IMG/VR virus record: IMGVR_UViG_3300014202_000218
Coordinates: 1 to 48,335 of that record
Source: a virus
Taxonomy: Duplodnaviria; Caudoviricetes
Length of the DNA: 48,335 bases
Strand: one strand, 5' to 3'
In this document: positions 12,290 to 48,335 of the stretch, one piece after another
Layout of the letters: each line of letters opens with the position of its first letter
How positions within the stretch are numbered: position 1 is the stretch's first letter
Notes under the pieces: generated by a model
Databases searched by the model: none
What the model was told of the DNA's origin: nothing
The model's input: the letters and a program-made list of their open reading frames with translations, nothing else
Made by a program: the position numbers and the translations under genes

Positions 12290-12521
12290 GGACTATACAC
12301 ATATTCGGTTCCCTGCGCACTCTCTACCTGGAATAGTTACTAGAATATGTGGCGTAACTGAGGGTGAATCTATTAGCTTTGAGCATTATGGAGAGAGGCA
12401 CATCAAGCCGGCAATATTAGGACAACTAGAACGGCTCCCATATCCACTATGCACAGACTGTATAGAGATATGTAGAGAAGCTTCTGATACAACTATATGC
12501 CCAACAGAGTCAACGGAATAG
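12219..12521 (+). CDS. Small Zn-binding hypothetical protein (start uncertain)
   Basis: H...ICG...LCTDC; fills the gap before the polymerase. Confidence 0.5.
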   Translation: MLDKPSSEVSLSEEIVPDKTSSPKDYTHIRFPAHSLPGIVTRICGVTEGESISFEHYGERHIKPAILGQLERLPYPLCTDCIEICREASDTTICPTESTE

Positions 12522-15040
12522 GTCCCCTAAATGCTAAACTGATGATAGTAGGGGAAGCTCCAGGTAGGGCCGAAGATGAGACTGGCACTCCATTTGTAGG
12601 CCCAAGTGGTGAGATATTAGATGATCTACTCAGCCGTTCTGGTATCTCTAGGTCGGACGTATATATCACTAATGTAGTGAAGGTACGTCCACCTAATAAT
12701 ATCTGGGAAGCTCTCCCCTCTATCGGCATATCAGTACAAGAGGAGACACAGAAGCTATGGGAATTTGAGATAAACAAGATCCAACCCAATGCCATACTAG
12801 CCGTTGGCGATAAAGCCCTTACTGCCCTAACAGCAGAATCAGGAATAACCAACTGGAGAGGCTCTATTATACAGGGGAGGGATGGAATACAGAAGGTAGT
12901 TGCTACACTACATCCTGCTGTTCTATTCCCTCACCCCGGTAAACCAGCTTGGCCCTGGGTCTGGAAACGGCTGATAGAGAATGATGTACGTAAAGCAGTT
13001 CGTCAATCAACGTTTAAAGGATTCAATCTCCCTGAACGTACTCTTACAGTAGCACATAGCTATCATCAGGTATACAAGTTCTTTCAGGAATACCGTCTCT
13101 GTAAGAAAGCAGCTAATGACATAGAGTCAATTAATTCAATACCTGTATGTACTGGATTTGCATTCAATAAACATCACGCTCTATCCATTCCTCTTCTACA
13201 TAAGGCAGGTAAGAATCGTCTATCTGATATGACAGCTCATGAGGTAGCCCAGTGCTGGAAACTCATTCAGGAGGTATTTTCCACTGGCCTAGGTATCATT
13301 GGTCATAACTACATGTATGATGAGTTCAAACAAAATCTTCTTGGATTCCATGAGATTAACTGCGTATCCGATACGAAGCTCAAGGTTCATACTATATTCC
13401 CTGAACTCCCAGATAAAGACCTAGCTACCTGTCTCTCACTCTGGACTGACGAGCCGTTCTACAAAGAGGAAGGCAAAGAGCCAAAGTTTGGCCTGTTCAA
13501 CGTAGAGAAATTCTTCAAATACAATGCAAAAGACTGTGCTGCTACATTTGAACTTGACGAGGAAATGGAGTGCTCTCTTCAGGCTCTTGAGGATAAGCTC
13601 CATATCCCTCTGCGAAAATTCTATTACGACTATGTCATGCGGAAGCACGGATTCTACCTCCGCATGGCTAACAACGGCTTCCGTGTTGATCACAGACAAA
13701 AAGATATTCTTAAAGGTGCGTATGAATACCTTAGAGAAGTTGCCCATGAACATCTCGTCTCCCTCATAGGCACAGAGATTAATGTAAAGTCCGCTCCTCA
13801 GATGAAGAAGCTTCTCTATGAGGATATGGGCTTTACTATGCCTAAGAAGTGGACACCGAACGGCCAGATAGATAAAGATGGTGCTACGTCTGAAGATCAA
13901 ATCATCAATCTCATTAACGTACATTGCCGCTCTGGCCCTAACGTTAATCTGAAACGCTCTATTCTCGAAGGTATTCTACAAGAAAGGAGAATCAGGGATC
14001 AAATCTCTCGTGCTCTAGATTTTGTCCCTGACTATGATGGCCGCTGCAAAACATCGGTTAACATTGTCGGAACGGAGACTGCAAGAACTAGCACAGGAGT
14101 TCTCAAGAAACCCGTCAGACCTAAAAAGATTGGTCTTGGATTCCATACCATACCTAAACACGGACGACTTGCTAGAGATATCCGAAGCATGTTTATCCCA
14201 GATGAGGGCTTTGTTTTCATTCAAGGTGACCTCTCGCAAGCGGAAGCGCGGATAGTAGCCGTTCTGGCAGAGGATTGGGAGTTACTAAAAGCCTTTGATA
14301 TCATAGACATCCACCGCAGGACGGCTGCCATATTCTTTGGGTATACTAAGAATCTTGTTCTTACACCGGATTTCATTAAAGGTGTAGATGACCTAGAGAA
14401 AGATGGAGCAGAGCGTTATACTGGTAAGACATTCCGCCATGCTGGTAACTATGATATGGGCAAGCATACGGCTATGGTTAACTACAATACCAATGCCCAG
14501 AAGTATGAGATCAACACGGTCATATCCGAGTATCGCGCTGGAGAACACATTAGGAAATTCCACGAGGCATCTCCTAATATTAGAGCCGTCTTCCACCGAG
14601 ATATTCGTTTAGCTCTAGATTCGTCTCGTATTCTCATCAACCCATACGGACGCCCTAGAGAGTTCAATGGTAAGTATGAAGATGATCTATACAAAGAAGG
14701 ATTCGCACAGATACCACAGTCAACAGTAGCAGATACTACCCAGTCAGCCGGTATCTCAGCATGGGATGAATGGGGTCATGATTCACGTATTGCAATGTTC
14801 ATGTCAGAGAATCACGATGCTCTTGTGGCACAGGTACCGCTGAACGGCTGGAGAGATTATGCTAAATCACTCAAGCGACACATGGAAAGGGATATTGATT
14901 TTTCCACTTATTGTACTCTTCGCAGAAATTATACACTTCGTATCCCCGTTGATATTGAAGTATCTATTAACCCTTCTACGGGCCGAGTAACAAACTACGG
15001 CGAACTCACGAAGTGGACTAAGATAAAGGAGGCTGCGTGA
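12497..15040 (+). CDS. polA: Family A DNA polymerase with N-terminal family-4 uracil-DNA glycosylase domain and 3'-5' exonuclease
   Basis: GEAPG..E...G.PFVG, NVVK.RPP.N, HPA (UDG); DIE, GHNYMYD, YNAKD (exo); TARTS, DLSQAEAR, RYTGKTFRHAGNY, NHDAL (pol motifs). Confidence 0.95.
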   Translation: MPNRVNGIGPLNAKLMIVGEAPGRAEDETGTPFVGPSGEILDDLLSRSGISRSDVYITNVVKVRPPNNIWEALPSIGISVQEETQKLWEFEINKIQPNAILAVGDKALTALTAESGITNWRGSIIQGRDGIQKVVATLHPAVLFPHPGKPAWPWVWKRLIENDVRKAVRQSTFKGFNLPERTLTVAHSYHQVYKFFQEYRLCKKAANDIESINSIPVCTGFAFNKHHALSIPLLHKAGKNRLSDMTAHEVAQCWKLIQEVFSTGLGIIGHNYMYDEFKQNLLGFHEINCVSDTKLKVHTIFPELPDKDLATCLSLWTDEPFYKEEGKEPKFGLFNVEKFFKYNAKDCAATFELDEEMECSLQALEDKLHIPLRKFYYDYVMRKHGFYLRMANNGFRVDHRQKDILKGAYEYLREVAHEHLVSLIGTEINVKSAPQMKKLLYEDMGFTMPKKWTPNGQIDKDGATSEDQIINLINVHCRSGPNVNLKRSILEGILQERRIRDQISRALDFVPDYDGRCKTSVNIVGTETARTSTGVLKKPVRPKKIGLGFHTIPKHGRLARDIRSMFIPDEGFVFIQGDLSQAEARIVAVLAEDWELLKAFDIIDIHRRTAAIFFGYTKNLVLTPDFIKGVDDLEKDGAERYTGKTFRHAGNYDMGKHTAMVNYNTNAQKYEINTVISEYRAGEHIRKFHEASPNIRAVFHRDIRLALDSSRILINPYGRPREFNGKYEDDLYKEGFAQIPQSTVADTTQSAGISAWDEWGHDSRIAMFMSENHDALVAQVPLNGWRDYAKSLKRHMERDIDFSTYCTLRRNYTLRIPVDIEVSINPSTGRVTNYGELTKWTKIKEAA

Positions 15041-16348: not shown

Positions 16349-17588
16349 TTATGTAGATGATGTACTCGAGGAATGTAACGATGTGGAGACACCTCGGGAT
16401 TGGATATACTGGAGTCTAATATGTACGATAGCTGCCGCAGCGGGTAGTGACTATTTTCTTGTTGCCTTTAATGGGAAGGTAACGTACAAACCAAATATCT
16501 ACACTATACTTATGGGAGAATCAGGATTAGGTAAGCAGTTTCCTGTATCTCTAGCTAAGAATCTTGTAGACCGTTCCGATACAACTCGTGTTATTTATGG
16601 ACGTTCATCCATTCAGGCTATAGTCAATGACATCTCCAAAACCAAACAACGAGAGCGTGGAAGTACTATTATGGATAGTCGTTGTTTCATTGTCAATGGT
16701 GAATTGTCTACTGCCATTATACAAGATCCACAAGCACTCACCATTCTTACTGACATCTACGATCCTCACACTAAGTGGGATAACACCCTTAAAGGAGATG
16801 GGTCAGGGGAAAAAGAGACTCTTACTGATCTTGCTACTACTGCTTTATTTGGCACAAGTCCATCTCACTTCTATGATTCTATCCCTCAAGTGAATATTGA
16901 AGGTGGATACATAGGCCGTAACCTCGTAATACGAGCAGAGAAACGCTACAAAGACCTTGATATGTTCTCAGATTCAGATGATGCTACTGACTTCCCATAT
17001 GCTAAATACGTAGAACACTTAGTAAAGATAGGCCAATCTGGTGGAAGGATGATACCAAATGCGGATGCTAAAGAGGCTATTAACTCCTTCCGCCGTAAAT
17101 GGAGACAAGAGCAGAGGGAAGATACAGTAGGATTCCTGAATCGAGTACCAGATCATATCATTAAAGTAGCCATGTGTCTCTGTCTTGCAGACTATGACTC
17201 GTATCGTACTCTCGTTATAAACCAGTCACATATTGAAGAAGCTATAGAAAAGGTTCTCCCATTAGCCCATACTACGAGGACAGTAACAGCAGGCTTAGGT
17301 GAAGATCCTATAGCTAAGCATACACGAGCCGTTATTGATTTTCTCATCAAGGCTCCAGAGCATAGACTCACTAGACGCCAGCTACTATCTAAGGGTTATG
17401 GAAACTATGATGCACCTGTTCTAGATCGTGTCTTAGCTACCCTTAATGAGGTAGGCTGGATTGAGACTATGCGTAAGATTGAATCGGGTTCTAACACTGA
17501 AGTAGAAATATCTCTACGAGGAGAGCCATTGAAGCAATACAATGATTACTTAGAGTCTCGTAAGAAGAAGGGAACGGCTAATGAGTAA
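16335..17588 (+). CDS. DUF3987-like AAA+ replicative helicase with C-terminal winged helix
   Basis: PNIYTILMGESGLGK, ELS, LFGTSP, GGYIGRNL, R....IKVAM. Confidence 0.8.
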   Translation: MLQPNYVDDVLEECNDVETPRDWIYWSLICTIAAAAGSDYFLVAFNGKVTYKPNIYTILMGESGLGKQFPVSLAKNLVDRSDTTRVIYGRSSIQAIVNDISKTKQRERGSTIMDSRCFIVNGELSTAIIQDPQALTILTDIYDPHTKWDNTLKGDGSGEKETLTDLATTALFGTSPSHFYDSIPQVNIEGGYIGRNLVIRAEKRYKDLDMFSDSDDATDFPYAKYVEHLVKIGQSGGRMIPNADAKEAINSFRRKWRQEQREDTVGFLNRVPDHIIKVAMCLCLADYDSYRTLVINQSHIEEAIEKVLPLAHTTRTVTAGLGEDPIAKHTRAVIDFLIKAPEHRLTRRQLLSKGYGNYDAPVLDRVLATLNEVGWIETMRKIESGSNTEVEISLRGEPLKQYNDYLESRKKKGTANE

Positions 17589-17826
17589 CGCTAAACTCAC
17601 CGGCCGTATTAAGAAGCCTAACAGCCGTGGATTCGGATTCATTGAGACGGCTGAAGGAATAGACTTCTTCTTCCACTATTCATCCTTCGATGGAGACTGG
17701 AAGAAGATGCTATCTAGTTACCTCGCTAATAATAACCTCGTGGTAGAGTTTGAGAATGACCCTACTACGATAGATGGACCTAAAGCTAAAAACGTTAAGA
17801 TTATAGGAACGGAGTCAGACCGATGA
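17581..17826 (+). CDS. Cold-shock domain protein
   Basis: RGFGFI (RNP1), FFFHYS (RNP2), GPKAKNV. Confidence 0.88.
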   Translation: MSNAKLTGRIKKPNSRGFGFIETAEGIDFFFHYSSFDGDWKKMLSSYLANNNLVVEFENDPTTIDGPKAKNVKIIGTESDR

Positions 17827-44944: not shown

Positions 44945-44973
44945 TTGACATCCTCACTCGATTCTGCTAAGAT
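44945..44973 (+). promoter_or_regulatory. Strong sigma70 promoter P1
   Basis: TTGACA-17-TAAGAT with extended TG. Confidence 0.85.
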
Positions 44974-45103: not shown

Positions 45104-45153
45104 ACAAGCAATAACTGACCGCTAGGCGTTATTACTTGTTCGCTCTTTGACAA
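45104..45153 (+). promoter_or_regulatory. Hairpin plus boxA antitermination element
   Basis: acaagcaataac/gttattacttgt stem followed by CGCTCTTTGACAA (rrn boxA is TGCTCTTTAACAA). Confidence 0.75.
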
Positions 45154-45292
45154 TTGAATACTATCAGCGCGATTGCCAGCTAGTATAGGCAACATGCACC
45201 GATAAGACTAGATGATGTTTATCTAGGGATACCGGATAATGCCAACTATACTAATCCAAGATAAGGCGGAAAATGGCAACGTGAGCATAGAA

Positions 45293-45996
45293 GGATACCA
45301 TACTACAGTATCCTATTCTCTATAGAGCTATCCACATAGTAGGATAGCTCTAGTGGTGACACAGTGTGTAGGTAATCAATCCTACGTCCCCTTATAACGA
45401 CAAATCGCCTGAAAGACGGCTAGGTTATAAGCTCGTTAAAATCCACTGTGTTACCTCTTGAGCTATCCTACACAAAGGACGGCTCAATATGATGATAGGT
45501 AACCGTGAGTATCGTGTAAAAGTAGATGCGGGAGTGATTCGTCATATTCCTATCATCAATAACCCTCCGCCTAGTCCAGTGTTTTACTCACTGTTTGAGC
45601 GAAAGGTTACTGGTGAGTATATACAAATTCGCTCCGCAGTCTACACCAGCGAGATGGAGGCGTTCCGAGTCTTCAGGGATGCTATTGCGAAAGCTCCATT
45701 GTCGCTCTCGATACGGAAGGCGAGAGTGAAGCGGAATAGAGCGCAAGGAGTGAGTAGGTTTCGAGGGGAAAGTTATAATGAGTGGCGAGATAGTCCGCTC
45801 AGGGAGAGGGAGAAGCGAGTAGGGAAATTCGACTGGAAGAAAGCTCAAGCCAATGATAAGGATTGAGGTAACAGTCTTGTTAGTGGTTTGGGTGGTGTGT
45901 CTATATCTGATGGTAAAACATCGGGTATGGTGGTAGTGGTGGAGATAGTGGATAGTTCTATAGAGGATAGGATAGTGTGGTGTGACAATGGTATCC
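45293..45996 (+). repeat. Long imperfect inverted repeat enclosing ORF 45489-45866
   Basis: 45293-45335 pairs with 45948-45996. Confidence 0.85.
45489..45866 (+). CDS. Basic early hypothetical protein
   Basis: 125 aa, AAGGA upstream; first ORF after P1/P2. Confidence 0.6.
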   Translation: MMIGNREYRVKVDAGVIRHIPIINNPPPSPVFYSLFERKVTGEYIQIRSAVYTSEMEAFRVFRDAIAKAPLSLSIRKARVKRNRAQGVSRFRGESYNEWRDSPLREREKRVGKFDWKKAQANDKD

Positions 45997-46100
45997 AGGA
46001 CGGCTCTAGGGAGTATTGTAGGCTCTGAAGTGTAGAGCTTATGATACTCTCTAAGACGTCCGCCAATAGATATGATAGTGTGTATGTGTAAGGGAAGAGT

Positions 46101-46588
46101 AGACATACAAAGACTATCTGTTCTATAGGGTGATGGATTGGACTGTAGTAGAACGATCTAAACTCTAGGTATGGGAGGAGGAAAAAATGAGTGAAGAACT
46201 AGAGTTTAGGATTGTGCTAGCTCTAAAGCTTGTTCTGCAAGTACATAAGGACAAGAGCTACGCAGAGTGGGCGCAAAAGTGGATTAGTGGAGAAGATAGA
46301 AGTAGAGAGTCTGCCGCTAATGCTGCTTATGCTACCGCTAATGCTGCTTATGCTGTTTATGCTGCTGCTTATGCTGCCGCTTATGCTGCTTATGCTTCTC
46401 ATGCTTCTCATGCTGCTCATGCTATTAGTGGAAGCCTGAGAACTGGAGCTAAGCTATCACTAGTAGTTAAGTTCGTAGAGTAGTGGGGTAGGGAGTAGTA
46501 GAGTAGGGAGTAGAAAGAAGAGTTTAGATTGTAAGTCTATAGTGAAATACAATCCATCCACCTATAGAGCAGATAGGATAGTATGTCT
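46101..46588 (+). repeat. Long imperfect inverted repeat enclosing ORF 46187-46483
   Basis: 46101-46166 pairs with 46519-46588. Confidence 0.85.
46187..46483 (+). CDS. Ala-rich repeat protein
   Basis: GGAGGAGG RBS; WAQKWISGEDRS followed by AAY/ASH repeats encoded by gctgcttat-type tandem units. Confidence 0.75.
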   Translation: MSEELEFRIVLALKLVLQVHKDKSYAEWAQKWISGEDRSRESAANAAYATANAAYAVYAAAYAAAYAAYASHASHAAHAISGSLRTGAKLSLVVKFVE

Positions 46589-46887
46589 CCGGTGAAGAAC
46601 GAGACAAAAACATACTATGCTATCTGTTCCATCGTAAGAGTAGGAGATATGCTAGAGTGAACACAAGTAGTGGAATAGGCTCAGTCAACGTGCTGAGGTA
46701 ATCCTATCCTCCGCGAACCATTCTAGTGTATACTATACGGCAAAAGAAGGAATGGGATGAGTTATGTAGAACCATACATATCGCTACCCTGTGACTCACT
46801 TACCGTATAGTCGTAATATAAGGGTAAGATGTTATATTACGCTCACTGTAGCCTAAAGTGGACAGTATGGGTCGTAAGGATTAACAG

Positions 46888-46917
46888 TTGACAACTGAGA
46901 ACGGAGTGTGATATAAT
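46888..46917 (+). promoter_or_regulatory. Sigma70 promoter with a palindrome over the -35
   Basis: TTGACA-18-TATAAT with TG; cagttgacaactg dyad at 46885-46897. Confidence 0.75.
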
Positions 46918-46993
46918 GACCTTGGCACAAGGGGCAGTCCCCCAGCCAAAACCCCGTGGCAATTTCGCTACGGTCCGAAGGAGCGATGGAACA

Positions 46994-47416
46994 ATGGCAG
47001 CACTGGCGGTAAAGAAGGGTAAGACTCGTGGTAAGAATCCTCGTGAGATTGAATACGAGGCATTCGATTTGGAACAGCCGGATAGTCTCCCGAAGACTCT
47101 CGAAGAGTTCTCTGCGGTGACGAAGGTTGATACTGAGGCTGAGCTCGTTAGCCTTCTGATTAATGGATTCAACGATAGCCAATACTCTGCTGCGTCGGAT
47201 GAGATTGGTGAGTTCATTAATGATGCTTGGGATAAGGATACTCAGGCTCAGTTCCGGCTGGCAGTTCGTAATACTTCCAAGATGACTGGTATGTCAATCG
47301 AGGATGTTGTTACGATGATGAAGCCTGCGGTTGAGAAGGGTTGGGCAGCTAAGGTTGAGGCTCGTGAGAAGGCTAAGGCTGATGAGAAGGCTAAGGCTGA
47401 GGCTGTGACTGCGTAG
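46994..47416 (+). CDS. Highly expressed early hypothetical protein (140 aa)
   Basis: AGGAG RBS before ATG 46994; ATG 46916 overlaps the -10 box; strong GCT/AAG/GAG codon bias. Confidence 0.8.
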   Translation: MAALAVKKGKTRGKNPREIEYEAFDLEQPDSLPKTLEEFSAVTKVDTEAELVSLLINGFNDSQYSAASDEIGEFINDAWDKDTQAQFRLAVRNTSKMTGMSIEDVVTMMKPAVEKGWAAKVEAREKAKADEKAKAEAVTA

Positions 47417-48130
47417 GAAGAAATAAAGATAGTCTGTCTACTCTCTAGATAGAGTTATCATATCTAATAAAAGGTCTAGGACGTAGTAAACCTTCTGTGA
47501 GAAGATGGATAGTCTTAGAGAATCTACACACACTCGACTATGCGAGTATAAATAGAGTTTAGGCATAGTGCGGATGTAGGGTATAGTAGAAAATATCTAT
47601 TATACTCTACATCGTAAAGCTAGTAACGGTATCCACACCTGTGCACAGGTTTGATGGAGAGATAAGCCTAGCAGGATGTATCCAGTGGAGATGGTCTTTT
47701 GGATATACTCTGGTAATATAAGACGATTCATTCTAGAGTAGAGCTACCCGGTATCTTGTAGCCTAGGATGTTAACTAGAATCCGGGAGCTAATGTATAGA
47801 AGGTATCTATTAGAAGGTATCTTCTATAGATTGGCTAACTAGCTAATCTCTGTAACGTTCTCAATTGGTAGTCTGACGAACGAACAGTATTAATGACTAT
47901 CCAGGGTATGAGTAGGTTACCCTTTCATAACTCATCCTGTTATAAACCAAAGGGAGCTAATCTTCTCCGGTAATACTCCAGACAGAGACTAGAGGGATGC
48001 ACCGTTATAGTGACTATCATCATTACCATTCATACACTGTAGCGACGTCATTCTAGTCTCTATCCGGGTTATTAGTGGAGTAGAGCATGAGTATAATACT
48101 ACATTTGTATTATTCTTTAGCTATCTCAAC
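47417..48130 (+). ncRNA. ORF-free, hairpin-dense region; candidate structured RNA
   Basis: gatgtagggtatagtaga/tctattatactctacatc, tatagaaggtatct/aggtatcttctata, agagactagag...atagtg/cactgt...ttctagtctct; G-U pairs on the + strand. Confidence 0.55.
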
Positions 48131-48139
48131 CATAACAGC

Positions 48140-48195
48140 TACCGTTTGATACCGTTGCTTACCGAGACATACCGTTGGATACCGCGAGAATCCGC
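48140..48195 (-). repeat. Five tandem 10-bp repeats plus GCGGAT, inverted relative to 165-220
   Basis: Reverse complement reads gcggat tctcgcggta tccaacggta tgtctcggta agcaacggta tcaaacggta. Confidence 0.95.
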
Positions 48196-48218
48196 GAGTC
48201 TACGGGAGTGGGAATGGC

Positions 48219-48247
48219 CGTAAGTCGTTGGGGGAGTAGGGTTTACG
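48219..48247. promoter_or_regulatory. Imperfect palindromic site, counterpart of 111-139
   Basis: CGTAAGTCGTTG-gggga-GTAGGGTTTACG; 20/29 identical to the left site when inverted. Confidence 0.5.
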
Positions 48248-48335
48248 GGAAGTAGGAGCACAGGGTATGTTTACCTATCCCCCCTACTTCCCCCAGTCCT
48301 GGCAGGGTGGGAGTGTAGTGTAGTCTTATATTTAT

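What the first reader, a model, noticed from the sequence alone, without database searches (positions are those of the whole stretch)
46101..46629. Second gene-enclosing stem with a shared arm motif and an alternative pairing partner
Seen: 46101-46166 pairs with 46519-46588 around ORF 46187-46483. Its 3' arm (ctatagagcagataggatagtatg) shares a motif with the 3' arm of the first stem (ctatagag--gataggatagtgtg). The same arm can instead pair locally with 46610-46629 (acatactatgctatctgttc). Inference: a repeated gene-in-a-stem cassette design. It could be an RNA processing switch, or DNA cassette boundaries that allow early genes to be exchanged.
Basis: partly seen in the sequence, partly recalled or inferred. 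Interest (0 to 1): 0.7.

Follow-up and report, generated by a model that had tools for sequence, protein, structure and literature searches.

The report
Phage genes enclosed by processing stems
In an uncultured phage and many of its relatives, small early genes sit between two complementary sequences that keep pairing through matched mutations, likely folding the early transcript into one loop per gene so that the host enzyme RNase III would cut it, as it cuts ribosomal RNA precursors, into separate messages with clamped ends.

Summary
Arms 46101-46166 and 46519-46588 form a long-range helix around a 98-codon gene (score 63; shuffles at most 46), the 3' arms of both stems share 21 of 24 aligned bases, and 46610-46634 is a real second partner. 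It is one unit of a chain of stem-enclosed cassettes in a phage early operon. Clear stems of this kind occur in 13 of 17 first-set relatives and 9 of 40 held-out relatives, around mostly unrelated genes. They are selected as RNA: G-U far outnumbers A-C (26:1; held-out 56:12, versus 17:35 in origin repeats). A central base-pair motif replicates in held-out stems and fits RNase III proximal-box rules in one register, but did not pick E. coli's known 16S cut. A boxA-like signal heads the operon. Best reading: rRNA-precursor-like processing of phage mRNA (0.6). A switch is poorly supported: the second partner is a copied arm, holds about 2% at equilibrium, and was seen in 3 of 14 genomes. Homologous arms do carry different genes. 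No RNA data were listed. This scan has noted the same layout before in other phages; I found no paper describing it.

The parts
44945..44973 (+). sigma-70-type promoter-like site P1 of the early operon (10 of 12)
   Evidence: tandem sites of the same type upstream of the first stem in L024 and a single one in L029
45051..45079 (+). sigma-70-type promoter-like site P2 (10 of 12)
45142..45160 (+). boxA-like antitermination signal, one mismatch to the published consensus GYTCTTTAANA, preceded by a leader hairpin
   Evidence: matches at the same place in 12 distinct relatives
45299..45335 (+). 5' arm of stem 1 (central palindrome CUAUAG at 45320-45325)
45337..45472 (+). nested stem enclosing a 77-nt non-coding segment; carries the same duplex motif
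45489..45866 (+). early ORF 1, 125 aa; homologues lie in stems of 7 relatives
45948..45984 (+). 3' arm of stem 1; shares the motif with the 3' arm of stem 2
45998..46061 (+). local 28-bp hairpin between the two cassettes
46101..46166 (+). 5' arm of stem 2 (palindrome CUAUAG at 46123-46128; predicted cut near 46126|46127, register uncertain)
46173..46181 (+). strong Shine-Dalgarno sequence, unpaired in the loop
   Evidence: sequence; fold
46187..46483 (+). enclosed ORF 2, 98 aa, alanine-tyrosine repeat; weak kin among small phage proteins (Imm5-like lead only)
   Evidence: no homologue in any fetched locus
46519..46588 (+). 3' arm of stem 2 (palindrome CUAUAG at 46562-46567; predicted cut near 46565|46566)
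46610..46634 (+). second partner of the outer 3' arm; degenerate copy of the 5' arm
46647..46731 (+). hairpin with an internal-loop motif shared with L018 and L022, after the last cassette
46888..46917 (+). perfect sigma-70-type promoter (12 of 12) for the conserved 166-codon ORF 3
   Evidence: same place in relatives
46916..47416 (+). conserved ORF 3 (105 hits including itself; fold without clear match); used as anchor to find relatives
47532..47586 (+). Pistol self-cleaving ribozyme (RF02679, 36.6 bits, cut-off 34.5) after ORF 3
   Evidence: Pistol also in 10 of 17 loci scanned

Best explanation
The stem is one unit of a chain of long-range RNA helices, each enclosing one or two small early genes, that likely serves as an rRNA-precursor-like processing stalk which host RNase III would cut on both arms, releasing each gene as a separate message whose two ends are predicted to stay paired. 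Shown: the helix and its significance; the chain layout in the window and in relatives; selection for pairing on the transcribed strand; compensatory changes; a conserved central base-pair motif about 10 bp from either end of ~30-bp helices; arms that hug start and stop codons but leave the ribosome-binding site free; a boxA-like leader. Inferred: transcription from P1/P2 with Nus-factor antitermination; cutting by RNase III near the CUAUAG palindrome (product about 46127-46565, 439 nt, closed by ~35 bp); protection of the ends from exonucleases. The shared arm motif and the second partner most likely come from duplication of an arm: before cutting the copy is a minor competitor, after cutting it would let the downstream piece fold its own 5' hairpin and let go of the upstream piece. 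Duplicated arms may secondarily ease gene exchange by homologous recombination.
For: G-U versus A-C at interior positions under strand-neutral scoring: 26 vs 1 in 30 stems; held-out 56 vs 12 in 29 non-repeat stems against 17 vs 35 in 11 origin-type repeat arms, Fisher p = 6e-8. 40 compact long-range helices in 188.5 kb of early/origin DNA versus 0 in 172.7 kb of downstream coding DNA. Duplex motif: information 12.5 bits against at most 10.4 in 30 pair-shuffled sets; trained on 26 stems it scores 23 of 28 held-out stems above their shuffle mean (12 of 28 at p <= 0.05; Wilcoxon p = 3e-5) but only 4 of 11 repeat arms. Its S-U-C-U half fits the proximal-box preferences reported for Aquifex RNase III (AU/UA at positions 2 and 4, GC at 3; PMC3074117 passages): position 2 was G-C or C-G in 0 of 26 training stems. 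In the window both stems carry a palindrome on the predicted two-fold axis. Homologous stems differ by pair-keeping changes, e.g. L024/L029 21 same, 7 both-side, 2 one-side, 0 broken. The stop codon lies 0-20 nt from the 3' arm in 29 of 35 cassettes, median 10. boxA-like element in the window and 12 relatives at the same place. Long-range RNase III targets in mRNA are documented in B. subtilis (10.1101/2023.03.12.532304 passages).
Against: No cut, RNA end or probing data exist here. The positive control failed: on the E. coli rrnB 16S stalk the motif's best registers predicted -125/+43 and -113/+31, not the known -115/+33, and scored poorly on the 23S stalk, so neither the enzyme nor the register is validated. 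The second half-site is weaker (position 2' is G-C in 9 of 26; 4 of 28 held-out stems have G-C/C-G at position 2), and the central pairs lack E. coli's G-C preference (PMC6212723). The layout is not universal: 2 of 17 first-set relatives had none and 2 were marginal; 31 of 40 held-out loci had none. boxA-like sites and stems are not coupled: a match within 4 substitutions was found in 7 of 23 stem-bearing genomes, and L197, L201, L202 have the site without compact stems. Relatives are not phylogenetically independent. The host is unknown.
Confidence: 0.6

Rival explanations
1. Uncut clamps: the helices form on the early RNA but are not cleaved; they insulate each gene as a folding or translation domain (stop codon brought next to the start), or are bound by another double-strand RNA binder, possibly phage-encoded.
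For: All pairing evidence fits equally; frequent central mismatches (12 of 26 at one position); failed E. coli control; the phage encodes a cold-shock-domain protein.
Against: A position-specific motif centred in ~30-bp helices points to a ruler-type reader; ORF 3's predicted fold gave no double-strand-RNA-binding match (not an exclusion); such helices are standard RNase III substrates in most bacteria (established knowledge).
Confidence: 0.2
2. RNA switch: the local hairpin 46567-46586/46610-46629 competes with the 5' arm and so turns processing of cassette 2 on or off by remodelling the outer half of the site.
For: The second partner is beyond chance and covers exactly the part of the 3' arm outside the predicted cut; second partners also occur in L020, L038, L086 and L059; in L086 the two folds are 40:60.
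Against: About 98:2 for the long-range helix, also with the ORF held open; the 5' arm is made first; only 5 of 52 arms in 3 of 14 genomes have a true second partner (7 flagged, 2 were overlap artefacts in L028); in L086 and L038 the alternatives arise from duplicated arms and, in L086, both folds present the same site; no ribosome-binding site or terminator is affected.
Confidence: 0.08
3. DNA cassette boundaries: the arms are primarily inverted-repeat or direct-repeat sites for inserting, excising or swapping early genes.
For: Near-identical arms enclose unrelated genes: L086 A/B 24 of 26, L147/L086B 22 of 25, L178/L180 20 of 24 and 20 of 25, L027/L147 22 of 28 identical, against a median of 35% over 1397 pairs; 47 cargo proteins fall into 32 clusters. 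T4-type PeSL repeats do this (PMC2839356 abstract).
Against: G-U/A-C asymmetry shows single-strand pairing on the coding strand, unlike the origin repeats; all cargo genes keep one orientation; arms are not conserved as a fixed site; in L024/L029 and L016/L019 the second gene changed inside an unchanged cassette; no recombinase family among the 57 window proteins scanned against Pfam.
Confidence: 0.07
4. Cut and ligated: after cleavage the clamped ends are joined into circular messages.
For: Geometry would hold a 5'-P and 3'-OH two bases apart (inference); an earlier scan note reports a joined form in another phage (e1-6063335; part of it later fell, not tested here).
Against: No RNA ligase family among the 57 window proteins scanned; no direct evidence.
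Confidence: 0.05

Closest known systems
Leader-trailer helices (RNase III processing stalks) around 16S and 23S rRNA in bacterial rrn operons, with boxA antitermination
   Same: Tandem promoters, a leader hairpin and boxA-like signal, then cargo enclosed by complementary flanks of about 30 bp whose sequence varies while pairing is kept (PMC10250234 passages; PMC8708148 passages).
   Different: Cargo is short protein genes or small non-coding segments, up to five cassettes back to back; phage, not host; cleavage not shown; the motif did not locate the E. coli 16S cut.
RNase III sites in the phage T7 early transcript (R1.1 type)
   Same: Phage polycistronic early RNA split by host RNase III into stabilised messages (PMC3867540 and PMC8708148 passages).
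   Different: T7 sites are local hairpins between genes; here the two strands lie on either side of a whole gene, 200-900 nt apart, so both ends of the product would be paired to each other.
Long-range RNase III targets in B. subtilis and E. coli mRNAs
   Same: Paired cuts hundreds of nucleotides apart (10.1101/2023.03.12.532304; PMC6212723).
   Different: Those are scattered sites, mostly read as decay signals; here the helices systematically bracket whole ORFs and spare the ribosome-binding site.
PeSL cassettes of T4-type phages
   Same: Repeated intergenic elements flanking dispensable early genes that are shuffled between strains (PMC2839356 abstract and outline).
   Different: PeSLs are direct-repeat promoter-terminator units acting in DNA recombination; the arms here are inverted partners selected for RNA pairing and contain neither promoter nor terminator.

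Membership tests
rrn-type leader-trailer RNase III stalk | long complementary flanks enclosing the cargo, helix of 22 bp or more | tested here: met
rrn-type leader-trailer RNase III stalk | pairing kept at RNA level by wobble and compensatory changes | tested here: met
rrn-type leader-trailer RNase III stalk | proximal-box base-pair preferences at a defined register | tested here: inconclusive
   motif real and replicated, fits Aquifex rules in one register, but failed on the E. coli control
rrn-type leader-trailer RNase III stalk | cleavage by RNase III leaving 2-nt 3' overhangs | not testable with these tools
   no RNA holder was listed
rrn-type leader-trailer RNase III stalk | boxA after the promoters | tested here: met
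   one mismatch to GYTCTTTAANA; same place in 12 relatives; function untested
rrn-type leader-trailer RNase III stalk | cargo is ribosomal RNA | tested here: not met
   no rRNA in the genome; cargo is a 98-codon ORF, so it works like, but is not, an rrn stalk
T7-type early RNase III site | local hairpin between genes | tested here: not met
   loop of 352 nt holding a gene; only the hairpin 45998-46061 and the minor alternative fold are local
Two-state RNA switch (attenuator or riboswitch type) | two mutually exclusive folds of similar energy | tested here: not met
   about 98:2; prediction only
Two-state RNA switch (attenuator or riboswitch type) | one fold hides a ribosome-binding site or forms a terminator | tested here: not met
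Two-state RNA switch (attenuator or riboswitch type) | both folds conserved in relatives | tested here: not met
   3 of 14 genomes, with differing geometry
PeSL cassettes of T4-type phages | repeat unit made of a strong promoter plus terminator stem-loop | tested here: not met
   no promoter- or terminator-like site in the arms on the + strand
PeSL cassettes of T4-type phages | gene shuffling by recombination between repeats, mini-circles | tested here: inconclusive
   homologous arms with unrelated cargo; breakpoints and circles not observable
Site-specific DNA elements (invertible segments, integron cassettes, insertion sequences) | strand-symmetric conserved repeats plus a recombinase | tested here: not met
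   strand-asymmetric G-U bias; no recombinase family found among 57 proteins scanned, which alone does not exclude one

The most novel reading that the evidence does not exclude
This phage family runs its early operon as a counterfeit rRNA operon: tandem promoters and boxA recruit the host's rRNA antitermination complex, RNase III cuts out every gene as an end-clamped and possibly ligated, circular message that outlives host RNA decay, a Pistol ribozyme closes the unit, and duplicated arms make each slot a plug-in socket for new anti-host genes.
Probability: 0.15. Interest if true: 0.85.

Novelty: new variant of a known kind. Interest (0 to 1): 0.6.

Why it matters
If right, phages reuse the ribosomal-RNA maturation route for messenger RNA: one long early transcript becomes many separately stable messages within minutes of infection, and genes can be swapped without redesigning regulation. 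It gives a directly testable substrate set (over 50 natural duplexes with a shared motif) for RNase III specificity in an uncultured host lineage, and a natural design for end-protected bacterial mRNA. The value of this single finding is tempered by the fact that this scan has already noted the layout in several other phage groups; what this family adds is a held-out test of the motif, a DNA-repeat internal control, the link to boxA and Pistol, and an explanation of second partners as arm duplications.

Tried and rejected
No prophage or host: genome-contig scans with ORF 3 and terminase alignments found no relative; no ORF 3 match in 50,697 cultured-phage records; best terminase hits there are about 30% identical. 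Ribozyme inside the arms: Rfam found only the Pistol downstream; my first impression of hatchet- or hammerhead-like pieces was recalled, not confirmed, and dropped. Idea that 46610-46634 is the 5' arm of a third stem around ORF 3: best partner scored 32, within shuffle range. ORF 3 as the stem-binding protein: confident model (pLDDT 92.8) but no Foldseek match at E <= 0.001 and best Z 6.2 to generic helices; undecided. Motif as a predictor of E. coli rRNA cuts: failed. A symmetric-motif model also beat its null (5.6 vs at most 4.6 in 12 sets) but mixed registers. The 'rest of genome' figure overlapped the early region and was replaced. One pattern search had a wrong length and found nothing. 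Rows dropped before counts: L031 (false ORF 3 hit), L025 (truncated), duplicates of the same contigs (L001/L021/L032/L127, L129, L143, L194, L163, L165, L166, L179, L183, L190), one long imperfect repeat in L056, and for motif training L017, L030, the window's nested stem and the L020 second partner; 38 of 80 helicase loci were used (those with the small terminase at least 1.5 kb upstream, duplicates removed) plus 2 terminase loci. The repeat/non-repeat split is by a 6-mer rule and leaves about 4 origin-like repeats among the 29. Literature: 10 searches gave no paper on gene-enclosing processing stems in phage mRNA; subscription journals are mostly outside the library.

Full report
Context. 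The window is a complete-looking 48,335-base tailed-phage genome (virus record, completeness 100) with terminases, a family A DNA polymerase, an SNF2 helicase and a tRNA-Met. The finding lies in the early operon that diverges from the small terminase: two promoter-like sites (44945, 45051), a chain of structured cassettes, a perfect promoter at 46888, a conserved 166-codon ORF 3, a Pistol ribozyme at 47532-47586 and an origin-like repeat region. The host is unknown (searches found no prophage).

Observation. The helix 46101-46166 / 46519-46588 is real: score 63 against at most 46 in 40 shuffles and 49 in 17 other windows; z = -7.2 for the folded region. The two 3' arms share 21 of 24 columns (score 32; 0 of 200 shuffles). 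The second partner is real as a duplex (-28.5 kcal/mol; 0 of 1000 shuffles) and is a degenerate copy of the 5' arm. The Shine-Dalgarno sequence (46173-46181) and the start codon are in the loop.

Relatives. Using ORF 3, the Pistol core and the terminase I fetched related loci. Of 17 relatives whose early region was scanned with strand-neutral scoring, 13 have clear long-range stems, 2 marginal ones and 2 none; L028 has four and L038 five, back to back. An independent set came from helicase and terminase searches: 38 of 80 helicase loci plus 2 terminase loci. There, 40 compact long-range helices lie in 188.5 kb between small terminase and helicase and none in 172.7 kb of downstream coding DNA; gene- or RNA-enclosing stems were in 9 of the 40 loci, the rest being origin repeats or nothing. 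So the layout is common in, but not general to, the wider group. Arms hug the genes: stop codon to 3' arm is 0-20 nt in 29 of 35 cassettes (median 10), 5' arm to start codon median 16 nt.

RNA or DNA? A DNA inverted repeat decays equally to G-T and A-C apposition; an RNA helix tolerates only G-U. Interior positions in 30 stems gave 26 G-U, 1 A-C, 13 other. In the held-out set non-repeat stems gave 56:12 and origin-type repeat arms 17:35 (Fisher p = 6e-8), an internal DNA control. Homologous stems differ by pair-keeping changes (L024/L029: 21 same, 7 both-side, 2 one-side, 0 broken). Pairing is therefore selected on the transcribed strand.

What reads the helix? Aligning 26 stems as duplexes gave a central motif, 5' arm S-U-C-U-A-K-U-N-R-R with N mismatched in 12 of 26, about 10 bp from each end (12.5 bits; at most 10.4 in 30 pair-shuffled sets). 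It replicated on held-out stems (23 of 28 above shuffle mean, 12 at p <= 0.05, Wilcoxon p = 3e-5) and not on repeat arms (4 of 11). With the two-fold axis between A and K, the S-U-C-U half matches proximal-box preferences: AU/UA at positions 2 and 4 and GC at 3 for Aquifex RNase III (PMC3074117, passages), with G-C at position 2 inhibitory (PMC1540722, passages; PMC6212723, passages); no training stem has G-C there. In the window both stems carry the palindrome CUAUAG exactly on that axis, giving predicted cuts near 46126|46127 and 46565|46566 and a 439-nt product closed by about 35 bp. Against this, the motif failed a positive control: on E. coli rrnB its top registers were -125/+43 and -113/+31, not the known -115/+33 (PMC8708148, passages), and it scored negative on the 23S stalk. 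The second half-site is weaker. The enzyme and register are inferred, not shown.

rRNA-operon-like leader. Prompted by an earlier scan note (e1-5917808), I looked for boxA and found a match at 45142 with one mismatch to GYTCTTTAANA (PMC5725501, passages). A fuzzy scan gave 30 hits in 4.58 Mb against 3 in 1.43 Mb shuffled; 12 distinct relatives have it just downstream of the small-terminase-divergent promoters. It is not coupled to stems: 7 of 23 stem-bearing genomes have a match within 4 substitutions, and three genomes have it without compact stems. In rrn operons boxA tethering is proposed to aid leader-trailer pairing (PMC10250234, passages).

The second partner. It swaps only the outer 20 bp; predicted occupancy is about 2% (1-2% at different transcript lengths). 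After a cut at the predicted place the downstream piece would fold this hairpin from its second base (-28.4 versus -26.3 kcal/mol for staying on the upstream arm). Across 52 arms of 14 genomes, 7 were flagged, 2 as overlap artefacts, leaving 5 arms in 3 genomes. L086 shows the origin: two adjacent cassettes with arms 24 of 26 identical around unrelated genes give two folds at 40:60, both presenting the same site. I read shared motifs and second partners as arm duplications, not a conserved switch.

Gene exchange. 47 cargo proteins fall into 32 clusters; near-identical arms hold unrelated genes in five pairs (79-92% identity against a median of 35%). But L024/L029 and L016/L019 changed the second gene inside a cassette that kept its first gene, and none of 57 window proteins scanned hit a recombinase or ligase family. 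Exchange is real; a dedicated DNA mechanism is not indicated. ORF 2 itself has six weak homologues, an Imm5-like lead at 12% of a cluster's members, and none in fetched loci, so it is one of the variable genes.

Known and new. The closest system is the leader-trailer helix of rrn operons; T7's early RNase III sites give the purpose but are local hairpins (PMC3867540, PMC8708148 passages); PeSLs give the shuffling parallel (PMC2839356, abstract and outline). Ten literature searches found no description of whole phage genes bracketed by processing stems; PMC4604425 (passages) notes Pistol's association with phages. I read passages only, no supplements; the per-position table of PMC6212723 is a figure and was not seen, and it bears on the register. 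This scan has recorded the same layout in other phages, unchecked AI notes that are not independent support; nothing was on record for this genome or look-alikes. No RNA holder was listed.

Verdict. Real, family-wide, RNA-level; most likely RNase III-type processing stalks for phage mRNA (0.6); new variant of a known kind; interest 0.6.

Noticed in passing
window 47532-47586; L014, L018, L020, L022, L023, L024, L026, L027, L028, L030, L033, L038, L056, L065, L078: A Pistol ribozyme follows ORF 3 (or lies close by) in many family members, just before the origin-like region; it could end the early transcript or make a replication primer.
   Followed up: partly
window 48140-48335 and 1-230; L001 4380-4870: Inverted arrays of short repeats flank an AT-rich core across the contig ends; repeat sequence differs between genomes; likely replication origin or packaging site. 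These arms decay like DNA repeats.
   Followed up: partly
window 47466-47516 and 47856-47905; L020 6479 and 6729: Two further conserved structured motifs flank the Pistol (an internal-loop hairpin and a possible pseudoknot), shared with L020 only among loci checked; no Rfam match.
   Followed up: no
L028 1606-1883 and reverse strand of L038 (3204-3509 in reversed coordinates): Stems that enclose a homologous 175-200-nt non-coding RNA rather than a gene; shorter non-coding cargo (62-114 nt) in the window (45367-45443), L018, L065, L078, L147, L162, L185, L189, L192.
   Followed up: no
window 46647-46731; L018 509-590; L022 14: Hairpin with a conserved internal loop resembling a loop-E/bulged-G motif (resemblance recalled) between the last cassette and the ORF 3 promoter.
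   Followed up: no
L153 4653-5675; L162 3893-4849: In these relatives ORF 3 and its own promoter are also enclosed by a stem (loops over 900 nt); in the window only a weak 18-bp echo (46096-46123 with 47417-47444) is left.
   Followed up: partly
L130, L136, L139, L140, L142, L144, L146, L148: A subgroup has ORF 3 on the opposite strand and no gene-enclosing stems.
   Followed up: no
L059, L071, L055: Pistol-bearing contigs outside this family also have single gene-enclosing stems; L059 has one 5' arm with two 3' partners and L071 a boxA-like site just upstream.
   Followed up: no
window 17581-17826 and 12497-15040: Cold-shock-domain protein, a possible RNA chaperone, and a DNA polymerase A fused to a uracil-DNA glycosylase domain.
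   Followed up: no
L020 5163-5561: The slot after ORF 1 holds a 132-aa gene that looks like a small nucleotidyltransferase by eye; no Pfam hit.
   Followed up: no
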